NCBI GenBank assembly: GCA_965249275.1
Contig: CBDFLQ010000005.1
Coordinates: 64,001-128,000, forward strand
From: Dehalococcoidia bacterium
GTDB lineage: Bacteria > Chloroflexota > Dehalococcoidia > Plut-88900
Length of the DNA stretch: 64,000 nucleotides
Reading direction: 5' to 3'
Part shown: positions 38,489-52,584 of the stretch, one piece after another
Layout: every line of letters begins with the position of its first letter
Numbering within the stretch: position 1 is the first letter of the stretch
Position numbers and translations under genes: made by a program
Notes under the pieces: generated by a model
What the model was told of the DNA's origin: nothing
Database searches by the model: none
The model's input: the letters and a program-made list of their open reading frames with translations, nothing else

Positions 38489-38565
38489 TGGTGGGCGATA
38501 CTGGACTCGAACCAGTGACCTCTTGCTTGTAAGGCAAGCGCTCTCACCAACTGAGCTAATCGCCC
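38489..38565 (-). tRNA. tRNA-Val(TAC)
   Basis: Cloverleaf, anticodon loop CTTACAA, GGTTCGA, encoded CCA. Confidence 0.95.
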
Positions 38566-43982: not shown

Positions 43983-44387
43983 AATTATATCAGAACGCGC
44001 ACTATCGTTCTACTATTTGGTGCCTGAAAGATGAGCGACGTGCGCATGGCCCGGACACTCTAACGTCCATCCGCTTGTCACCAGCAATGCAACCGGAATC
44101 GACACGGAAGCCCACTTCACATTGCTTAAGACGTTGATCACCGGGGATGAGGAACGCTTGTCGAAGCCCCAGGCAACGCCCACGCTCAGCATAGTCCTTG
44201 AATGGATTAGTTCTACGCTCACCCTTCAATCGAAGGGCCGAGGTGCTGCATTTCGCCTCCTTGCTAGCTACAATGGCACCCTTGCAACAGGGTATTAACT
44301 GGGTATAATGCAATATGAGGGCTTAACCGTGAGTCAAGCTCTGGCGTACGCGTGGACAGGGCAAGAACCATTTTTTGAGGAGGTGCA

Positions 44388-44816
44388 ATGGATAAGAAAG
44401 ACTTTGTTCTTTTGGCAGTGGCCGCTAGCCGGAACAAGGTTCTAACACCCGTACGGTTGCAGAAGGCACTCTTCTTGCTTGGACAAGCCCCTATCGTGCC
44501 AAAAGATTGGTACGACTTTGAGGCACACCACTACGGGCCATTTTGCCGCGCCATTTACAGGGACGCGAATAAGTTGCAGGAGGAAGGCTTGCTCATGCGC
44601 GTGCCCGTGGACCAAGGTGGATGGACAAACACCTACCTCACGGTTGACGGGGCAAAAAAGGCAGAGGAGGTGCAAAGAGACATGCCCGCCGCACATGCGG
44701 CCCATGTTGAGGCGGTTGTTGATTGGGTGGAAACGAAGTCTTTTGGCCAGCTCCTTACGTCAGTCTACGCCGCGTATCCCGATTACGCCGTCAACAGCGT
44801 ATTTCGCGGCCAGTAA
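44388..44816 (+). CDS. Panacea/SocA/YwgA-like winged-helix protein
   Basis: LQKALFLL...YDFEAHHYGPF...IY.D. Confidence 0.65.
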   Translation: MDKKDFVLLAVAASRNKVLTPVRLQKALFLLGQAPIVPKDWYDFEAHHYGPFCRAIYRDANKLQEEGLLMRVPVDQGGWTNTYLTVDGAKKAEEVQRDMPAAHAAHVEAVVDWVETKSFGQLLTSVYAAYPDYAVNSVFRGQ

Positions 44817-44819
44817 CAT

Positions 44820-45599
44820 ATGACCCTAATCGTCGGAATCAAATGTTTAGATGGGGTAGTAATGGGAGCGGACAGCGCTGCTACACTAGGCCCGGCGATC
44901 CTTGGTCAGCCCACAGTCACCCAGACCGCAGCAAAGCTACGCCTTGTGGATGATGCCATCATCGTAGGCGTCTCTGGGCCACTAGGATTAGCCCAACTGT
45001 ACGGCGAGCGCATAGACCATGCTTGGCGAAACATGGATCTGGGAAACACCAAGATAACTATGCCAGATGCACAGCGCAGGATTCGGGACGGGCTGCTTCC
45101 TGATATGGGCCAATCGGTCACTGTAGCGAAAGCGGCAGGCTTGCCAGCGATGGCTCTCACGAGTACTTTAGTTGCTCTACCGATAGGCGGGATTAAGGGT
45201 GAGCATGGTCTTATCTATTGCGACAACATAGGCACACCAGAGGCTATGGAGGATATACCCTTCGCTGCCATCGGCAGCGGACAGTCCCTTGCGGACCCCT
45301 TTTTAGCGTTTCTGCGCCGTGTGTTTTGGCCTGATAAGCTGCCAACATTAGCAGATGGGGTCTTTGCCGCAGTTTGGACGTTACAGCAGGCTATTGCAGT
45401 GACGCCTGGGGGAATCGGTGGACCAATTCAACTGGCGACCTTATCCAAGAAAGACGGAAAGTTGTCTGCTGAACTCATGCTAAGCGACGTTCTTGGAGAG
45501 CATCTGGAAAATATCAAACGGGCGGAACAATATCTTGCAGCTTTTGCGACGGAATCTCCAAGCGCAGCAAGTGACCCGCCTTCTTTCCCTCACAAATAA
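44820..45599 (+). CDS. Proteasome beta-subunit-like Ntn hydrolase
   Basis: M-T-LIVGIKCLDGVVMGADS (N-terminal Thr nucleophile), AIGSG, GIGGPI. Confidence 0.8.
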   Translation: MTLIVGIKCLDGVVMGADSAATLGPAILGQPTVTQTAAKLRLVDDAIIVGVSGPLGLAQLYGERIDHAWRNMDLGNTKITMPDAQRRIRDGLLPDMGQSVTVAKAAGLPAMALTSTLVALPIGGIKGEHGLIYCDNIGTPEAMEDIPFAAIGSGQSLADPFLAFLRRVFWPDKLPTLADGVFAAVWTLQQAIAVTPGGIGGPIQLATLSKKDGKLSAELMLSDVLGEHLENIKRAEQYLAAFATESPSAASDPPSFPHK

Positions 45600-45703
45600 C
45601 CCCAATTCCCTTAATATAAGGTTATGCACCCGCCCGCTCTCGGAAAGCCGGTTTACAACGAGCCGGATAAACATAAAAACAATTAAGCACTTCTCTCTGA
45701 AAG

Positions 45704-45943
45704 ATGAGCTACATAGTCGTCGTAGAGACCGTCAGGTGGACCAAGTATCCAACCCAATTAGCGACTCTGCACCTACCAGGACGGCGCTGCTCGGCTCGGT
45801 ATCGAGACGCCGATAATCCAGACCTTGACTACACCCAGGCCTTCGAAACTCCGGAGCAGGCTCAGGAGTTCGTAGACATCATCGGGATAAAGATGGAACC
45901 CTGCTTGACCTGCCGACCACTGCACGACCGGGATGCAATCTGA
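45704..45943 (+). CDS. Small hypothetical protein
   Basis: 79-aa ORF with H...C and C..C residues. Confidence 0.45.
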   Translation: MSYIVVVETVRWTKYPTQLATLHLPGRRCSARYRDADNPDLDYTQAFETPEQAQEFVDIIGIKMEPCLTCRPLHDRDAI

Positions 45944-46126
45944 GTTTTGCACTCGCCTCGAGACTCTTTTACCCTCTCCCTCGATGGGAGAGGGCTAGGG
46001 TGAGGGTGATCCCCGTCCCCCGCCCCAATCCCCCCAGGGGCGGCCGGCCGGTCGCCCTGCCCGCCACTCACGCCCCGTGACACCAACCCTCTGATCCCGT
46101 TCACATAGAGGAGTGACACAACCCCC

Positions 46127-46156
46127 TTGACACGATACGTACCTATGTTCTATATT
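46127..46156 (+). promoter_or_regulatory. Sigma70 promoter with LexA-like box
   Basis: TTGACA-18 nt-TATATT; GTAC-ctat-GTTC at 46139-46150. Confidence 0.65.
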
Positions 46157-46162
46157 AGGCCA

Positions 46163-46830
46163 GGTCTAGACTACCTAACCCAACCACCTTAAGGAGGAAT
46201 CACAACCCAGGGGGGAACCCCAGCCCCGGCCCATAACAAGGACTCAACGTCCAAGCCCATCCCAACGGTCGCCTAGCGACCCGCGGCTCAAGCAAACGCC
46301 GCCATCTCCTCGACTAAGGCCCCGGCTATCCCTTCCCTCTGTCCCCCAGGCGATGGAAAGACGCCCTGGTTCGCTATCGTTCCATGTGAGGCTCCTAACG
46401 GAGATGCCGCTCCTTCAAGCGGAATAGCGGTCGGATAGGCCCGGCGCCGAGGCCCTCTCGGTACACCGTCCGCTTAATCAAGCCGGGAGCCGGTGGTCTA
46501 CGCGCTCCGGGTCGCACCGGCAAACTTGGACACATTACGCCTGCAAGAGGCCCGGCATCGGACGCTGGACGGGCCTCCTAGCCGCCCTATAGCGGTGCAG
46601 CCAACCCCCCGGAGTCGGACTCGGACCTGCTGGCCCTGAAGGTCCCTGCCCATGTCCGGCGTATACAGGGCCAAAGGCCGCAGCAGCGGCAAAAGCGGGC
46701 CGGACGCCCTTGCCCCAGGGCGTCGGAGCACCCGAAGCACATGAACGGGGGTAGCGTCCAGCCAGCGTCTTCCATCGCCAATCCCCTCCCAACAGACAGA
46801 ACCGAAACCCACAAACCCCACAACTGAATA
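46163..46830 (+). ncRNA. Candidate large structured ncRNA, copy B
   Basis: Paralogous to 14068-14600; long closing rod ~46349-46388/46738-46779; many internal hairpins; no ORF. Confidence 0.65.
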
Positions 46831-46872
46831 AAATCCCGGCGTGTCACTAATCTACCGAACGGCTGCACGGGC

Positions 46873-47045
46873 TTGAACCCCACCCCGCCACCCGCTACAA
46901 TAGCCCCCGCAGCCGACCGCGAGCGGCGGTAAGCATCACAGCCCCGAGCCATACATAGACCCAATGGCCGGCATCCATATAGAGCCGGACCGGGTTGACC
47001 ATACAGGTATAGCGAACCCTCGCGGTCGGGTTGCGAGGGTTTTTG
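46873..47045 (+). promoter_or_regulatory. Promoter plus attenuator leader (pan-motif-like) of the peptidase-panB-panC region
   Basis: TTGAAC-17-TACAAT; CCGACCGCGAG (46913-46923) is complementary to CTCGCGGTCGG (47019-47029) in the terminator. Confidence 0.65.
47015..47045 (+). terminator. Intrinsic terminator/RBS-sequestering hairpin
   Basis: AACCCTCGC...GCGAGGGTT followed by a T-run; contains the GAGGG RBS. Confidence 0.75.
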
Positions 47046-48020
47046 TTGTACGACACGATTACCGACGTACCAGGCGTTCAGGTCGGTCATTACACCGACC
47101 CGGTAGCCGTCACGGGCTGCACCGTGGTCCTCTGCCCAGAGGGCGCGGTCGGCGGCGTCGATGTTCGTGGCGCCGCACCCGGCACCCGTGAGACCGACCT
47201 TCTTCGACCCCTTAACCTTGTCCAGCAGGCCCACGCCGTTGTCCTCAGTGGAGGCAGCGCCTACGGTCTAGCCGCCGCCGACGGGGTGATGACCTACCTC
47301 GAAGAGCGTGGCATAGGCTTTCCCGTCGGCGTCGGCGTCGTACCCATAGTGGCCTCGGCCATCCTCTTCGACCTGGCCATCGGCGACCCCACCGTCCGCC
47401 CCCGCCCCGAGAACGGCTACCAGGCCTGCGCCGCCGCCGACTCCACGGCCCCCACCCAAGGCTCGGTGGGTGCAGGTACGGGCGCAACAGTCGGCAAAGC
47501 CCTCGGCCCCGACCGTGCTGTTAAGGGCGGCCTCGGCTGCTCCAGCCGACGGGTTGGCGATTACGTCGTCGGTGCCATCGTCGCAGTCAACGCGCTTGGC
47601 AGCATCTTCAACGCCGAGACCGGACGCTTGGTCGCGGGCCCCCGAGGCGCGGACAACCTCGGCTTCCTGGACAGCGTCGATCTGTTGGAGAGCGCGGCGG
47701 CCCCGGTAGAGGCCTCGGCCCTCCGCAACACTACCCTCGCCGTCGTCGCCACCGACGCCCCTCTCACCAAGGAGCAGGCCAACAAGGTCGCGCAAATGGC
47801 CCACGACGGCCTCGCCATGGCAATCCGGCCCGCCCACACCATGTATGACGGCGACGTCGTCTTCGCCCTGTCCACCGGCAAAGCCACCCCCATCCCCGAC
47901 GTCACCCCCTTCGGCGCCGCCGCCGCCCGAGCCCTCAGCAGCGCCATACTCAAAGCCGTAATCGAGGCCTCGGGCCTGGGGGGCGTCCCCTCAGTCTCAG
48001 ATTTGAAGGTCAATGTCTAA
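47046..48020 (+). CDS. P1/S58 (DmpA-like) peptidase
   Basis: ITDVPGVQVGH, DVRG.APGTRETD, LSGGSAYGL, NTTL, AHDG, DGD.VF. Confidence 0.92.
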   Translation: MYDTITDVPGVQVGHYTDPVAVTGCTVVLCPEGAVGGVDVRGAAPGTRETDLLRPLNLVQQAHAVVLSGGSAYGLAAADGVMTYLEERGIGFPVGVGVVPIVASAILFDLAIGDPTVRPRPENGYQACAAADSTAPTQGSVGAGTGATVGKALGPDRAVKGGLGCSSRRVGDYVVGAIVAVNALGSIFNAETGRLVAGPRGADNLGFLDSVDLLESAAAPVEASALRNTTLAVVATDAPLTKEQANKVAQMAHDGLAMAIRPAHTMYDGDVVFALSTGKATPIPDVTPFGAAAARALSSAILKAVIEASGLGGVPSVSDLKVNV

Positions 48021-48032
48021 ACGTATTCAAGG

Positions 48033-48530
48033 AGTATTGATAACCTACCTAAATACGGGGGGTGTAGAGGGGCCCAGCCCCTTTGCCCGGATTCTGAAGA
48101 AGAGGTCCAGTCCCCTCTCCCTTGATGGGAGAGGGTTAGGGTGAGGGTGTTTCCGAACCACAAGGCAGGACTGGAAGAGTTCTTTCATAGCCCGTAGGTA
48201 GCAAGGTGCATGACAAAGGTTCCTGGAGTATTGACAGCCTACCGAAATACAGGGTGCGCAGAGGGGCGAAGCCCCTTTGCCGGTAGTCTGAGGGTGTCCC
48301 TCAGATATAACTTTCTCTTTCTCCCTTTCCGGGAGGAGACCCTGGCCCGTAGGTAGCAAGGTGCATGACAAAGGTTCACCAAGTATTGACAGCCTACCGA
48401 AATACAGAGTGTGCAGAGGGGCGAAGCCCTCTTTGCCGGGAGTCTGAGGGTGTCCCTCAGATACAACTCCCTTTTCCTTCCTTTCCGGGAGGAGACCCTG
48501 GCCCGTAGGTAGCAAGGTGCATGGCAAGGA
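48033..48530 (+). repeat. Tandem array of three ~155-194 bp structured units
   Basis: Units start with AGTATTGA at 48033, 48227 and 48382 and share GCCCGTAGGTAGCAAGGTGCATG. Confidence 0.88.
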
Positions 48531-51283: not shown

Positions 51284-52584
51284 GGTACAGACCGGGCAGA
51301 AAGGTAACACATAAACCGGGGACATGGGTAACACATCGTGGGATTGTATTAGGCAATCCCAGAGGAGGAAGATGTGTTGCCTTGGAAAGACACGAGCATA
51401 GAATCGGAGCGGTTGCAGTTCATCGAGCGTCACACTGCGGGAGAGGAGACTATTGCTGAGCTGTGCCGCCGGTCCGGGATCAGCCGCAAGACGGGCTACA
51501 AGATAATCGGCCGATACGAGGCGTATGGTGAGGACGGTCTACTTGACCTAAGCCGGGCTCCTCACAGCCATCCCAACGCCACTTCCATAGAGGTGGCTAA
51601 GCGTATCATCGAGGCGAAGCGCACCCATCCCACATGGGGCCCGAAGAAGATCGTCGCCTGGTTGCATTCCATCGAGCCCTACGTGCCCTGGCCTTCCTCC
51701 AGTACTGCGGGCGCCATACTGGACCGTGTGGGTCTGGTGAGGCGGCGCAAGCGGCGGCGCAGGGCTACACGCTGGGGCGAGCCCTTCGCCCACGCCCGGC
51801 ACCCCAATGACGTGTGGGCCATCGACCTGAAGGGCTGGTTCCGCACGGATGACGGAATGCGGATAGACCCCCTTACAGCCCAGGACGCCATGTCCCGCTA
51901 CTTACTGGTATGCGACCCTCTCGACCGCCCTGCCGGCCCGGAAGTCAAGCGCTCTCTGGAGAGAACCTTCCGAGAGTACGGCATCCCTCGGGCCATACGC
52001 ACCGACAATGGTCCGCCCTTCGCCAGTGTGGGTCTGGGCAGCCTCTCACCACTCTCAGCATGGTGGGTCAAGCTCGGGATCGTACCCGAACGCATAGAGC
52101 CCGGTCACCCCGAACAGAATGGACGCATCGAGCGCCTTCACCGGACCCTCAAGGCCGAGACCGCAACACCTCCAAAGGCCAACTGGAGACGACAACGCAG
52201 AGCCCTCGAACGCTTCAGACACACCTACAACTTCGAGAGGCCACATGAGGCCCTGGGGCAGCAACCACCAAGCCGGCTGTACACGCCCTCGATCAGACCC
52301 TATCCCACACGTATCAGCTCGCCCGAGTACAACGCCGGTGTCACCGTACGTAGTGTCCGCAGCAACGGACAGATCAAGTGGAAGGGAGATATGCTCTACG
52401 TGAGCGAGTCCCTCAAGGGCGAACCCATCGGCCTGGTCCAGATAGACGAACGAACCTGGTCCATACAGTTCGGGCCACTCATCATCGGACTCCTTGATGA
52501 CCCCACCAGAAGGGTCGACAAAACCCCAGTCAAAGTGTTACCTATGTCCTCGGTCTAACTGTTACCCATGTCCCCGGTCGTACA
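51284..52584 (+). mobile_element. IS481-family insertion sequence
   Basis: Imperfect TIRs with two internal repeats at each end (ACCGGGGACATGGGTAACA / TGTTACCCATGTCCCCGGTCGTACA). Confidence 0.85.
51374..52558 (+). CDS. IS481-family transposase (rve integrase core)
   Basis: PW...ER..FI HTH, W.IDLKG, TDNGPPF, PEQNGRIERLHRTLK. Confidence 0.93.
   Translation: MLPWKDTSIESERLQFIERHTAGEETIAELCRRSGISRKTGYKIIGRYEAYGEDGLLDLSRAPHSHPNATSIEVAKRIIEAKRTHPTWGPKKIVAWLHSIEPYVPWPSSSTAGAILDRVGLVRRRKRRRRATRWGEPFAHARHPNDVWAIDLKGWFRTDDGMRIDPLTAQDAMSRYLLVCDPLDRPAGPEVKRSLERTFREYGIPRAIRTDNGPPFASVGLGSLSPLSAWWVKLGIVPERIEPGHPEQNGRIERLHRTLKAETATPPKANWRRQRRALERFRHTYNFERPHEALGQQPPSRLYTPSIRPYPTRISSPEYNAGVTVRSVRSNGQIKWKGDMLYVSESLKGEPIGLVQIDERTWSIQFGPLIIGLLDDPTRRVDKTPVKVLPMSSV

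What the first reader, a model, noticed from the sequence alone, without database searches (positions are those of the whole stretch)
46111..46830. Copy B of the ncRNA: same scaffold, larger and unrelated-looking internal domain
Seen: the closing rod is longer here (GGCGATGGAAAGACGC..TGG..CGCTATC.GTTCCATGTG pairs with CACATGAAC..GGTAGCG.CCA..GCGTCTTCCATCGCC). It encloses ~350 nt of hairpins such as CTCC-TAAC-GGAG, GCCGGTG/CACCGGC, GAGGCCC/GGGCCTC, TGGCCCTG/CAGGGCCA and GACGCCCT/AGGGCGTC. Apart from the CTCC-TAAY-GGA hairpin and a short TGGACGGG, I see little shared with the interior of copy A. Inference: a constant scaffold carries an exchangeable cargo domain, and the long helix could be an RNase III-type processing or circularisation stem that releases a variable RNA.
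Basis: partly seen in the sequence, partly recalled or inferred. Interest (0 to 1): 0.85.

Follow-up and report, generated by a model that had tools for sequence, protein, structure and literature searches.

The report
Promoter-seeking mobile cassette with conserved core
The supposed RNA gene is one of about 55 copies of a gene-less jumping DNA cassette that lands just upstream of gene promoters, carries its own promoter, and has a non-coding core kept unusually well conserved.

Summary
The long rod is real, but the hairpins inside it fold no better than shuffled sequence (z -0.36).

Copy B (window 46092-46867) is one of 53-55 copies in this 2.9-Mb genome. All nine genomes of one uncultured Dehalococcoidia genus gave 25-65 matches; 3 other genera of the family gave none. 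Rfam has no match.

**Shown**
- It is a transposon-like cassette of 0.74-0.9 kb without a gene. It has TG..CA ends, imperfect terminal inverted repeats of about 27 bp and 5-bp target-site duplications (10 of 17 perfect, against 3 of 272 in controls).
- Two filled/empty site pairs place the right end 5 bp from a resident -35 box.
- A near-consensus promoter reads inward.
- The cores fall into about ten types, not unrelated cargo.
- Between orthologous copies the core is 97.2% identical, against 84.1% at third codon positions. At two loci it has been swapped outright.

**Inferred**
- Each copy is a selected gene for a roughly 0.6-kb non-coding RNA, spread by an IS481-like transposase.

Transcript ends, processing and function remain untested.

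The parts
46087..46091 (+). Five bases left of the cassette. They match the five bases right of it at only 2 of 5, so no intact target duplication remains at copy B.
   Evidence: The left flank (44300-45950) has no counterpart in five relatives, which suggests a rearrangement at the element.
46092..46119 (+). Left end, starting with TG. It forms an imperfect terminal inverted repeat with the right end and contains the GTGACAC block.
   Evidence: (pair I1).
46127..46156 (+). Inward-reading promoter P1: TTGACA, 18-nt spacer, TATATT. It matches 11 of 12 consensus positions.
   Evidence: The same promoter is aligned in the copies. Copy A has TTGACC-17-TATTAT at 14033-14061.
46163..46348 (+). Conserved leader, C-rich and G-poor and mostly unpaired. 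Its invariant blocks are AAGGAGGAA (46191-46199), GGACTCAACG..GCCCATCC (46240-46262) and CGCCATCTCCTC (46300-46311).
   Evidence: It folds weakly (20 pairs, -11.5 kcal/mol). GC skew is -0.24 to -0.42. The start at about 46163 is inferred from the -10 box.
46349..46388 (+). 5' strand of the closing rod. The core GGCGATGGAA is present in all 53 copies.
46389..46737 (+). Core of the 9-copy type. It is G+C-rich with balanced G and C, and has no conserved reading frame.
46738..46779 (+). 3' strand of the closing rod, ending in TTCCATCGCC.
   Evidence: The class-specific extensions of the two arms are complementary to each other.
46780..46837 (+). C/A-rich, G-poor tail ending in ACAACTGAATAAAA. Homology with the orthologous loci of G002 and G005 begins inside it, at 46823.
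46838..46867 (+). Right end, finishing with CA. It is the inverted-repeat partner of the left end.
46873..46901 (+). Resident promoter P2 of the downstream unit (TTGAAC-17-TACAAT). Its -35 box lies 5 bp from the cassette end. It is not part of the cassette, being present at the cassette-free site in G007.
14020..14600 (+). Copy A. It has the same promoter, leader, core rod (arms at 14245 and 14545) and tail, but another core type (2 copies). It lacks the outer end modules and has no promoter-like site between it and the GlnRS gene at 14628.

Best explanation
Copy B is one member of a genus-specific family of non-autonomous mobile cassettes, 0.74-0.9 kb long and with no gene.

**Shown**
- The cassette has TG..CA ends, imperfect terminal inverted repeats of about 27 bp and 5-bp target-site duplications.
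- Relatives hold clean empty sites.
- Its right end typically lies 5 bp from the -35 box of a resident promoter, reading the same way as that gene.
- A near-consensus promoter at the left end points inward. It is followed by a C-rich, largely unpaired 200-nt leader, a rod whose two arms co-vary, a 290-520-nt core in about ten types, and a C/A-rich tail.
- Between orthologous copies of sister species the core is as conserved as first and second codon positions.

**Inferred**
- The cassette is moved in trans by an IS481-like transposase. Such elements in this genome have the same TG..CA ends, the same 5-bp duplication and related end sequences.
- After landing, each copy is kept by selection as a gene for a roughly 0.6-kb non-coding RNA made from its own promoter.
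- In that RNA the leader and rod are the common scaffold and the core is the copy-specific working part.
- The G-poor leader and tail may serve as loading sites for a protein such as Rho, and the rod as a stabilising or processing stem.
- What the RNA acts on is not known. Its fixed place beside promoters makes the neighbouring gene the first suspect.
For: **Copy number and range**
- blastn finds 53 copies. The covariance model gives 55 matches in G000 and 25-65 in each of the 8 other same-genus genomes.
- All 53 copies keep the promoter, the 5' arm and a 3' arm.

**Mobility**
- In G000, 10 of 17 end-to-end pairs have a perfect 5-bp duplication and 2 of 17 match at 4 of 5. Mismatched control pairs give 3 of 272.
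- In relatives, 7 of 15 are perfect and 5 of 15 match at 4 of 5, against 0 of 210 in controls. About 8 of these 15 are orthologues of G000 copies.
- Two filled/empty pairs were found: G002/G005 against G000 C7:~435880, and G001 against G000 C5:~630650, where a single copy of the 5-bp target sits in the empty site.

**Target**
- TTG follows the right duplication in 10 of 17 G000 pairs and 7 of 15 pairs in relatives.
- Both empty sites keep the -35 box.
- 42 of 53 copies have a co-oriented downstream gene.

**Possible helper**
- An IS481-like element of 1056 bp is present in 11 full copies. It has TGTA..TACA ends and a 5-bp duplication.
- Its ends match the cassette's right end at 18 of 30 aligned positions (my count).

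**Selection**
- Over 10 orthologous pairs the core is 97.2% identical (n=3617) and the rod 96.6%. Third codon positions are 84.1% (n=7277), other non-coding flank 93.0% and first plus second codon positions 97.9%.
- The closest paralogues are at most 95.7% identical.

**Not coding**
- There is no 3-base periodicity, and no frame is kept open in two of the three large core types.
- My gene caller called an ORF inside 3 of 53 copies: a weak one (score 6) and two that are the neighbouring genes running into the element.

**Promoter and rod**
- The promoter matches 11 of 12 consensus positions.
- The two main arm classes differ at three pairs, with matching changes on both sides.

**RNA libraries**
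- Contigs from runs X16 and X17 cover 46239-46781 piecewise. One 103-nt contig is identical to 46345-46447.
Against: **Weak support for a structured RNA**
- The core folds no better than shuffles on either strand.
- G.U cells are no commoner than A.C cells: 113 against 107 in the 28-sequence alignment of copy B's type. The other types are mixed. The paired strand therefore cannot be told, and a DNA-level palindrome fits equally well.
- Double changes occur at 21 of 183 predicted pairs, against 5-15 in the slid controls. This is only a modest excess.
- The leader has almost no consensus structure.

**Transcription not shown**
- The RNA-library contigs cannot show strand or ends, and may come from carried-over DNA.
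- No terminator-like site lies between the tail and P2.

**No matching helper found**
- The cassette's end motifs occur only in the copies themselves plus 3 orphans.
- The IS481-like element targets a different site, a repeat palindrome.

**Incomplete family picture**
- Only 14-22 of 53 copies carry the outer end modules. Duplications could not be checked for the rest, which include copy A.
- 11 of 53 copies face a convergent gene.

**Limits of the selection test**
- The 10 pairs cover 8 G000 loci and three close relatives.
- BLAST shows only what aligns, and in 1 of 10 pairs no core positions aligned.
Confidence: 0.55

Rival explanations
1. It is a giant cis-acting leader. Transcription from P1 runs through the cassette into the neighbouring gene, and the type-specific core senses a signal or protein and decides on read-through, so the cassette is a mobile regulatory 5' region.
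For: - 42 of 53 copies have a co-oriented gene beginning 80-440 nt after the 3' arm.
- Copy A has no promoter-like site between itself and the GlnRS gene.
- No terminator-like site follows the tail.
- The core is specific to each copy and conserved.
- 4 of the 13 copies of one core type precede Amidohydro_2 genes.
Against: - 11 of 53 copies face a convergent gene.
- Many downstream genes have a promoter of their own, which also exists at cassette-free sites.
- The downstream genes have no common function. Among the 40 scanned are tRNA ligases, UvrA, Lgt, deformylase, amidohydrolases and others.
- No Rfam riboswitch or leader family matches.
Confidence: 0.15
2. It is purely selfish repeated DNA: an oversized MITE with no role for the host. 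The rod and hairpins are DNA palindromes, or the ends of a nested older element, and the promoter is incidental.
For: - It has terminal inverted repeats, target duplications and empty sites.
- There is no excess of G.U over A.C.
- The core folds like shuffled sequence.
- The genome holds several other repeat families and IS elements.
- A second family with another leader ends in similar rod arms. This would fit a rod-bounded module that is itself an inserted element.
Against: - The core is 97.2% identical between orthologues, against 84.1% at third codon positions and 93.0% in other non-coding flank.
- All 53 copies retain the promoter and both arms.
- No copy pair is more than 95.7% identical, so there has been no recent burst.
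- Orthologues are closer than paralogues, so gene conversion does not explain the conservation.
Confidence: 0.12
3. It works as DNA: a mobile upstream control region. Its conserved core and end blocks would bind proteins such as nucleoid or transcription factors, which act on the adjoining promoter. Any RNA made is a by-product.
For: - The cassette sits at a fixed distance from the -35 box.
- The left-end block also stands in front of the groES-groEL promoter.
- Conservation comes without a folding signal or strand-specific wobble.
Against: - A 290-520-bp core conserved almost base for base is far more than known operator arrays need.
- An 11-of-12 promoter that points into the core is kept in every copy.
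- The G/C skew changes sharply between leader, core and tail on one strand, which is a transcript-like asymmetry.
Confidence: 0.08
4. One reading: the rod is an RNase III or circularisation stem that releases the enclosed RNA as the active product.
For: - The rod is 16-40 bp long, is kept in all 53 copies and its arm extensions co-vary.
- The enclosed part is the most conserved part.
- In Neisseria, RNase III binds and cuts hairpins formed by Correia elements (PMC2649163, abstract only).
Against: Nothing tested here bears on cleavage. Contigs cannot show ends or back-splice joints, and the two joints listed are single-contig replacements typical of other family members.
Confidence: 0.1

Closest known systems
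Prokaryotic MITEs, for example Correia repeat-enclosed elements of Neisseria (review PMC10969869, sections 2 and 3.3 read; PMC2649163, abstract only)
   Same: - Non-autonomous and multi-copy.
- Terminal inverted repeats and target-site duplications.
- Intergenic location.
- Can bring promoters, and their transcripts form stem-loops.
- Thought to be moved in trans by IS transposases.
   Different: - Size is 739-902 bp, against 'typically <500 bp'.
- It is G+C-rich rather than AT-rich.
- The promoter reads inward into a long conserved core, rather than outward from an end.
- The core comes in about ten types and is under strong purifying selection.
- Insertion is at a fixed 5 bp from -35 boxes.
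Mobile insertion cassettes (MICs): IS ends around passenger DNA without a transposase (seen only in the search listing: PMC6199540, PMC5444012; features otherwise recalled)
   Same: IS-type ends enclose a passenger of several hundred bp, with no transposase inside.
   Different: As I recall, known passengers are protein genes. Here the passenger is non-coding, has its own promoter, and the cassette reaches about 55 copies per genome.
IS481-family insertion sequences
   Same: TG..CA ends, a 5-bp duplication and related end sequences (18 of 30 positions), as in the IS481-like element of this same genome.
   Different: - There is no transposase gene.
- The interior shows no similarity to the transposases (tblastn best E 3.9).
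- The target differs: upstream of -35 boxes rather than a repeat palindrome.
Large structured bacterial RNAs of unknown function (OLE, GOLLD, ROOL, raiA; Rfam)
   Same: Size near 600 nt, a conserved non-coding sequence and its own promoter.
   Different: - No Rfam match.
- Tens of diverged copies per genome rather than one or a few (recalled).
- Carried by a transposon-like unit.
- The folding signal is weak.

Membership tests
MITE (as defined in PMC10969869, section 2.1) | Terminal inverted repeats of about 4-30 bp | tested here: met
   The ends align as an imperfect repeat of about 27 bp starting with TG (pair I1, 99). They were found in 14-22 of 53 copies.
MITE (as defined in PMC10969869, section 2.1) | Flanking direct repeats from target duplication | tested here: met
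   5 bp. 10 of 17 pairs are perfect in G000, against 3 of 272 in controls. The empty site holds a single copy. The repeat is not intact at copy B itself (2 of 5).
MITE (as defined in PMC10969869, section 2.1) | No transposase; non-autonomous | tested here: met
   My gene caller called no ORF of its own inside 50 of 53 copies. The other 3 are a weak call (score 6) and two neighbouring genes that run into the element. There is no codon periodicity and no tblastn hit to the genome's rve transposases better than E 3.9.
MITE (as defined in PMC10969869, section 2.1) | Total length typically <500 bp | tested here: not met
   739-902 bp for 15 of the 17 end-to-end pairs in G000; the other two, at 1029 and 1199 bp, look like mispaired ends. 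Copy B is 776 bp.
MITE (as defined in PMC10969869, section 2.1) | AT-rich, in AT-rich intergenic regions | tested here: not met
   100-nt windows across copy B have 46-72% G+C, and the core 62-72%. The genome is 59% G+C.
IS481 family insertion sequence | Encodes an IS481-type DDE (rve) transposase | tested here: not met
   There is no ORF and no similarity. Only the ends and the duplication length resemble those of the IS481-like element.
Any Rfam RNA family (riboswitches, T-box, OLE, GOLLD, ROOL, raiA, group I/II introns, ribozymes) | Covariance-model score at or above the family's gathering score | tested here: not met
   Only 5 tRNAs in the 64-kb window. Nothing of note at E<10 in 45900-47100. 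0 matches in 20 other copies with their flanks.
Structured non-coding RNA gene (generic) | Transcribed from a defined strand with defined ends | tested here: inconclusive
   There is an 11-of-12 promoter. RNA-library contigs cover 46239-46781 piecewise, but contigs show neither strand nor ends, and DNA carry-over is possible.
Structured non-coding RNA gene (generic) | Conserved secondary structure supported by covariation | tested here: inconclusive
   The rod arms co-vary between the two classes. In the core, 21 of 183 pairs have double changes against 5-15 in slid controls. G.U equals A.C. Folding z is -0.36.
Structured non-coding RNA gene (generic) | Purifying selection on a non-coding sequence | tested here: met
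   The core is 97.2% identical, against 84.1% at third codon positions and 93.0% in other non-coding flank, over 10 orthologous pairs.

The most novel reading that the evidence does not exclude
The cassettes are a transposon-borne, diversifying family of large functional RNAs, delivered precisely to the upstream edge of promoters. Each copy's core would be a specific regulatory or targeting module for the adjoining promoter or gene, or the RNA itself might help choose the -35-proximal target. That would make them a mobile, programmable RNA layer over some 50 housekeeping operons in one lineage of uncultured bacteria.
Probability: 0.15. Interest if true: 0.9.

Novelty: new variant of a known kind. 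Interest (0 to 1): 0.7.

Why it matters
Non-autonomous bacterial transposons are usually seen as small, decaying passengers. This one differs in four respects.

- It is about 0.8 kb long and fills roughly 1.5% of a 2.9-Mb genome (55 copies of about 0.8 kb; my arithmetic).
- It inserts at a fixed distance from promoter -35 boxes.
- It carries its own strong promoter.
- It holds a non-coding core that evolves about as slowly as amino-acid-determining codon positions.

If the core is a working RNA, this is a case of an RNA gene family that multiplied by transposition and then specialised copy by copy. It would also give a clean system for two questions: how a DDE transposase finds promoters, and how mobile DNA seeds new regulatory RNAs.

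If the core works as DNA, it would be an unusual mobile upstream control region.

Either way, automatic annotation of these genomes misses it entirely.

Tried and rejected
**Known RNA families.** Rfam was run at gathering scores on the whole window, at E<10 on 45900-47100 and on 20 other copies. It returned nothing relevant.

**Coding core.** No 3-base periodicity was found. One type (13 copies) has an open frame across the core in the three members printed, but shows no third-position excess, and the frame is not open in the other types. Rejected.

**Remnant of a transposase gene.** tblastn of three rve transposases against the 53 copies gave a best E of 3.9. blastn found only a shared 26-nt flanking repeat. 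Rejected.

**G.U wobble as proof of the RNA strand.** My first impression from the 10-bp core stem did not hold up in the type-wise count. Dropped.

**End modules as mere promoter-upstream boxes.** I considered this after finding the left module at the groES-groEL promoter. The target duplications and empty sites show they are element ends, and the groES site looks like a truncated left end.

**Function-specific leader such as T-box.** The 40 downstream proteins scanned are diverse.

**Spread beyond the genus.**
- blastn: 0 of 3 other genera of the family and 0 of 29 other families of the class.
- Covariance model: 0 of 3 other genera.
- A pattern scan of genome contigs gave single hits in two Burkholderiales records, a Puia record and a deltaproteobacterial record. 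I take these as chance and did not look at them.

**Literature.** Six searches found no description of this element. I saw listings and abstracts only, except PMC10969869, where I read sections 2 and 3.3 and some passages. Supplements were not consulted.

**RNA runs.** Parts of the stretch without contig cover (46044-46231) prove nothing. Runs X16-X19 carry the label 'sponge metagenome'. I draw no habitat conclusion beyond that label.

**Complementarity between core and downstream leader.** The script for this gave no answer, so it was not tested.

**Loci from the model search.** The tool reported that they could not be cut out.

**First hand-in.** One search was turned back because the confidence field was missing. 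This report is the same with that field added.
Full report
**1. The observation**

The 10-nt arms 46349-46358 and 46770-46779 are perfectly complementary. In the minimum-energy fold they extend, with bulges, into a rod over 46349-46388 and 46738-46779 that closes off 349 nt.

With the rod, the 451-nt stretch folds better than shuffles (z -2.57). The 345-nt interior alone does not: z is -0.36 on the + strand and -0.32 on the - strand. Copy A's interior gives z -1.79. So the rod is real, but the interior hairpins are what a 62-72% G+C sequence gives by chance.

**2. A large family, not two copies**

- The 261-nt 5' part of copy B has 53 blastn matches of at least 70 bits in the window's own 2.9-Mb genome, at 69-82% identity. 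A 54th copy turned up later at C7:805 kb.
- A covariance model of the 5' part gives 55 matches in G000 and 25-65 in each of the eight other genomes of the genus. It gives none in the three other genera of the family.
- blastn also found nothing in 29 other families of the class.
- Record titles name the genus only as uncultured Dehalococcoidia.
- Rfam has no match in the window, in the region at E<10, or in 20 other copies.

**3. Anatomy shared by the copies**

- All 53 copies have a promoter. In copy B it is TTGACA-18-TATATT, 11 of 12 consensus positions. In copy A it is TTGACC-17-TATTAT.
- A leader of about 200 nt follows, with invariant blocks. It is C-rich and G-poor (GC skew -0.24 to -0.42) and has almost no consensus structure (20 pairs, -11.5 kcal/mol).
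- All 53 copies then have the 5' arm. A 3' arm lies 300-530 nt further on, followed by a C/A-rich tail.
- Beyond the 10-bp core, the arms fall into two main classes whose extensions are complementary to each other. They differ at three pairs with matched changes.

**4. The interiors**

By blastn the interiors form groups of 13, 12, 9 (copy B's group), 6, 4, 3, 2 (copy A's group), 2, 1 and 1. Several short motifs recur across groups. They are diverged or mosaic relatives, not unrelated cargo.

They show no codon periodicity and no frame kept across types. They have no similarity to the genome's transposases.

A second family of about nine copies has the same promoter but another leader, ends in similar arms, and shares core types.

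**5. It is a mobile cassette**

- In 14-22 copies the unit is bounded by two modules that are imperfect inverted repeats of each other. They start with TG and end with CA.
- Of 17 left-right pairs in G000, 10 are flanked by a perfect 5-bp direct repeat and 2 by a 4-of-5 repeat. Mismatched left-right controls give 3 of 272.
- In loci held from relatives, 7 of 15 are perfect and 5 of 15 match at 4 of 5, against 0 of 210 in controls. About eight of these 15 are orthologues of G000 copies and so are not independent.
- First filled/empty pair: G002 and G005 carry an 875-bp cassette where G000 (C7:~435880) has an uninterrupted site, with flanks 94% identical.
- Second filled/empty pair: G001 carries one, flanked by a 5-bp repeat, where G000 (C5:~630650) has that 5-mer once.
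- No copy pair in G000 is more than 95.7% identical, so there has been no recent burst.

**6. Where it lands**

In both empty sites the 5-mer is followed directly by a -35-like TTGA(C/G) box with a -10 box at the right spacing. TTG follows the right-hand repeat in 10 of 17 G000 pairs and 7 of 15 pairs in relatives.

Copy B's right end (46867) lies 5 bp from TTGAAC-17-TACAAT at 46873-46901. That promoter is also present in G007, where no cassette is present.

By my own crude gene calls, 42 of 53 copies have a co-oriented downstream gene and 11 a convergent one. The 40 downstream proteins scanned are diverse. They include peptidase S58, Leu- and Gln-tRNA ligases, UvrA, Lgt, deformylase, arginase, seven Amidohydro_2 proteins and others.

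**7. A candidate helper**

G000 has 22 rve-domain frames in three IS groups. One group is a 1056-bp element in 11 full copies with the following properties.
- Its best NCBIfam hit is the IS481 family, at 189.7 bits against a cut-off of 224.
- Its ends are TGTA..TACA.
- It makes a 5-bp duplication inside a repeat palindrome.
- Its ends match the cassette's right end at 18 of 30 aligned positions (my count).

The chemistry fits, but the target and ten or more end positions differ. No transposase gene flanked by the cassette's own ends was found in G000. The helper is therefore inferred.

**8. Selection**

I compared ten orthologous locus pairs, covering eight G000 loci, with G002, G005 and one further relative. 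Identities were as follows.

| Class | Identity | Sites |
|---|---|---|
| Third codon positions | 84.1% | 7277 |
| First and second codon positions | 97.9% | 14561 |
| Other non-coding flank | 93.0% | 5770 |
| Core | 97.2% | 3617 |
| Rod arms | 96.6% | 327 |
| Leader | 92.4% | 1768 |
| End plus promoter | 90.8% | 748 |
| Tail | 93.2% | 646 |

Orthologues are closer than any paralogue pair, so conversion among copies does not explain this. The core is therefore held by purifying selection at each locus.

In one of the ten pairs no core positions aligned. At copy B's own locus, G002 and G005 hold a cassette with a different core of about 440 nt, G001 a third core of about 290 nt, G003 a remnant, and G007 none. 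Homology starts sharply at 46823, and the left flank is unique to G000. Cores are thus either almost unchanged or exchanged outright.

**9. Is it an RNA?**

*For.* The inward promoter is kept in all copies. The one-strand composition changes sharply between leader, core and tail. The rod arms co-vary. The core is conserved. Contigs from RNA libraries X16 and X17 cover 46239-46781 piecewise, and one of 103 nt is identical to 46345-46447.

*Against or open.*
- Contigs show no strand or ends and may stem from DNA.
- The core's folding energy is ordinary.
- In the 28-sequence alignment of copy B's type, 94.4% of cells pair, but only 21 of 183 pairs show double changes, against 5-15 in the slid controls.
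- G.U cells (113) equal A.C cells (107).

I therefore rate 'mobile cassette' as shown and 'selected non-coding function' as well supported. 'Works as a roughly 0.6-kb RNA' is the most likely reading but is unproven.

**10. Comparison with what is known**

The closest kinds are prokaryotic MITEs such as Correia elements, and mobile insertion cassettes. The unit meets the MITE features of inverted ends, target duplication, absence of a transposase and multiple copies. It fails the features of size (<500 bp) and AT-richness (PMC10969869, section 2.1).

I did not find three features in the papers I could see:
- an inward promoter feeding a long core;
- cores that are type-diversified and strongly conserved;
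- insertion 5 bp from -35 boxes.

I file it as a new variant of a known kind.

**11. Limits**

- The gene calls are my own crude ones.
- The selection test rests on close relatives and on what BLAST aligned.
- Copies without the outer end modules, which include copy A, could not be tested for duplications.
- The last script, testing complementarity between core and downstream leader, returned nothing.

Noticed in passing
window 46902-47050: Promoter P2 is followed by a conserved stretch of about 140 nt that ends in a strong terminator-like hairpin with a T run (47014-47042), just before or overlapping the start of the peptidase S58 gene. It is conserved in all five relatives searched, including the cassette-free G007. 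The only Rfam hint is a weak His_leader match (16.7 bits, E 7). It may be a small RNA or an attenuator.
   Followed up: no
window 13764-13840 (- strand): A degenerate tRNA-like sequence, 71% identical to the tRNA at 38489-38565, lies 180 nt upstream of copy A. Rfam does not call it.
   Followed up: no
window 48026-48527: Three tandem units of about 155 nt (81-93% identical) lie right after the peptidase S58 gene (families D3, D5, D6). A 67-nt piece recurs at the same place in relatives.
   Followed up: no
window 708, 9961, 45961, 48102, 51241: A palindromic repeat family of about 50 nt has 5 copies in the window (family D2). It is the insertion target of one IS group. It is by far the most deeply covered part of the stretch in the RNA-library contigs, with depth 300-700 at 45950-46043.
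   Followed up: partly
window 51284-52584: One of 8 near-identical copies (99.4-100%) of a 1301-bp IS with a 401-codon rve frame. It looks recently active.
   Followed up: partly
G000 C5:156945, C5:477201, C5:735537, C5:272055, C6:141657, C6:946494, C6:841594, C7:453337, C7:724391 (outside the window): A second multi-copy family has the same promoter cassette but a different leader of about 330 nt. It ends in rod arms like those of the finding and shares core types with it.
   Followed up: partly
G000 C6:928803 (- strand, outside the window): The left-end module of the cassette, with its -35 region, stands directly upstream of a CIRCE-like inverted repeat and the groES-groEL genes. It looks like a truncated cassette end recruited as promoter DNA.
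   Followed up: no
tails and leader loops of many copies, e.g. L177:~1400-1480 and G000 C5:477201: A mini-hairpin module of about 22 nt occurs one to three times in tandem in the tails. It is also inserted into leader loops of both families.
   Followed up: no
G000 C5:2066 (-), C7:110680 (+), C6:411198 (+) (outside the window): The same promoter type drives three paralogous small proteins (136-175 aa). One is followed by a 463-aa protein that looks like a phage terminase large subunit by eye; this was not tested.
   Followed up: no
window 44388-45943: The genes left of copy B have no counterpart in five same-genus genomes at E<1e-10, so copy B sits at the edge of strain-specific DNA. They are a 142-aa protein with a faint SocA-antitoxin hit, a 259-aa protein with a weak proteasome-beta-like N-terminus and a 79-aa ORF.
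   Followed up: no
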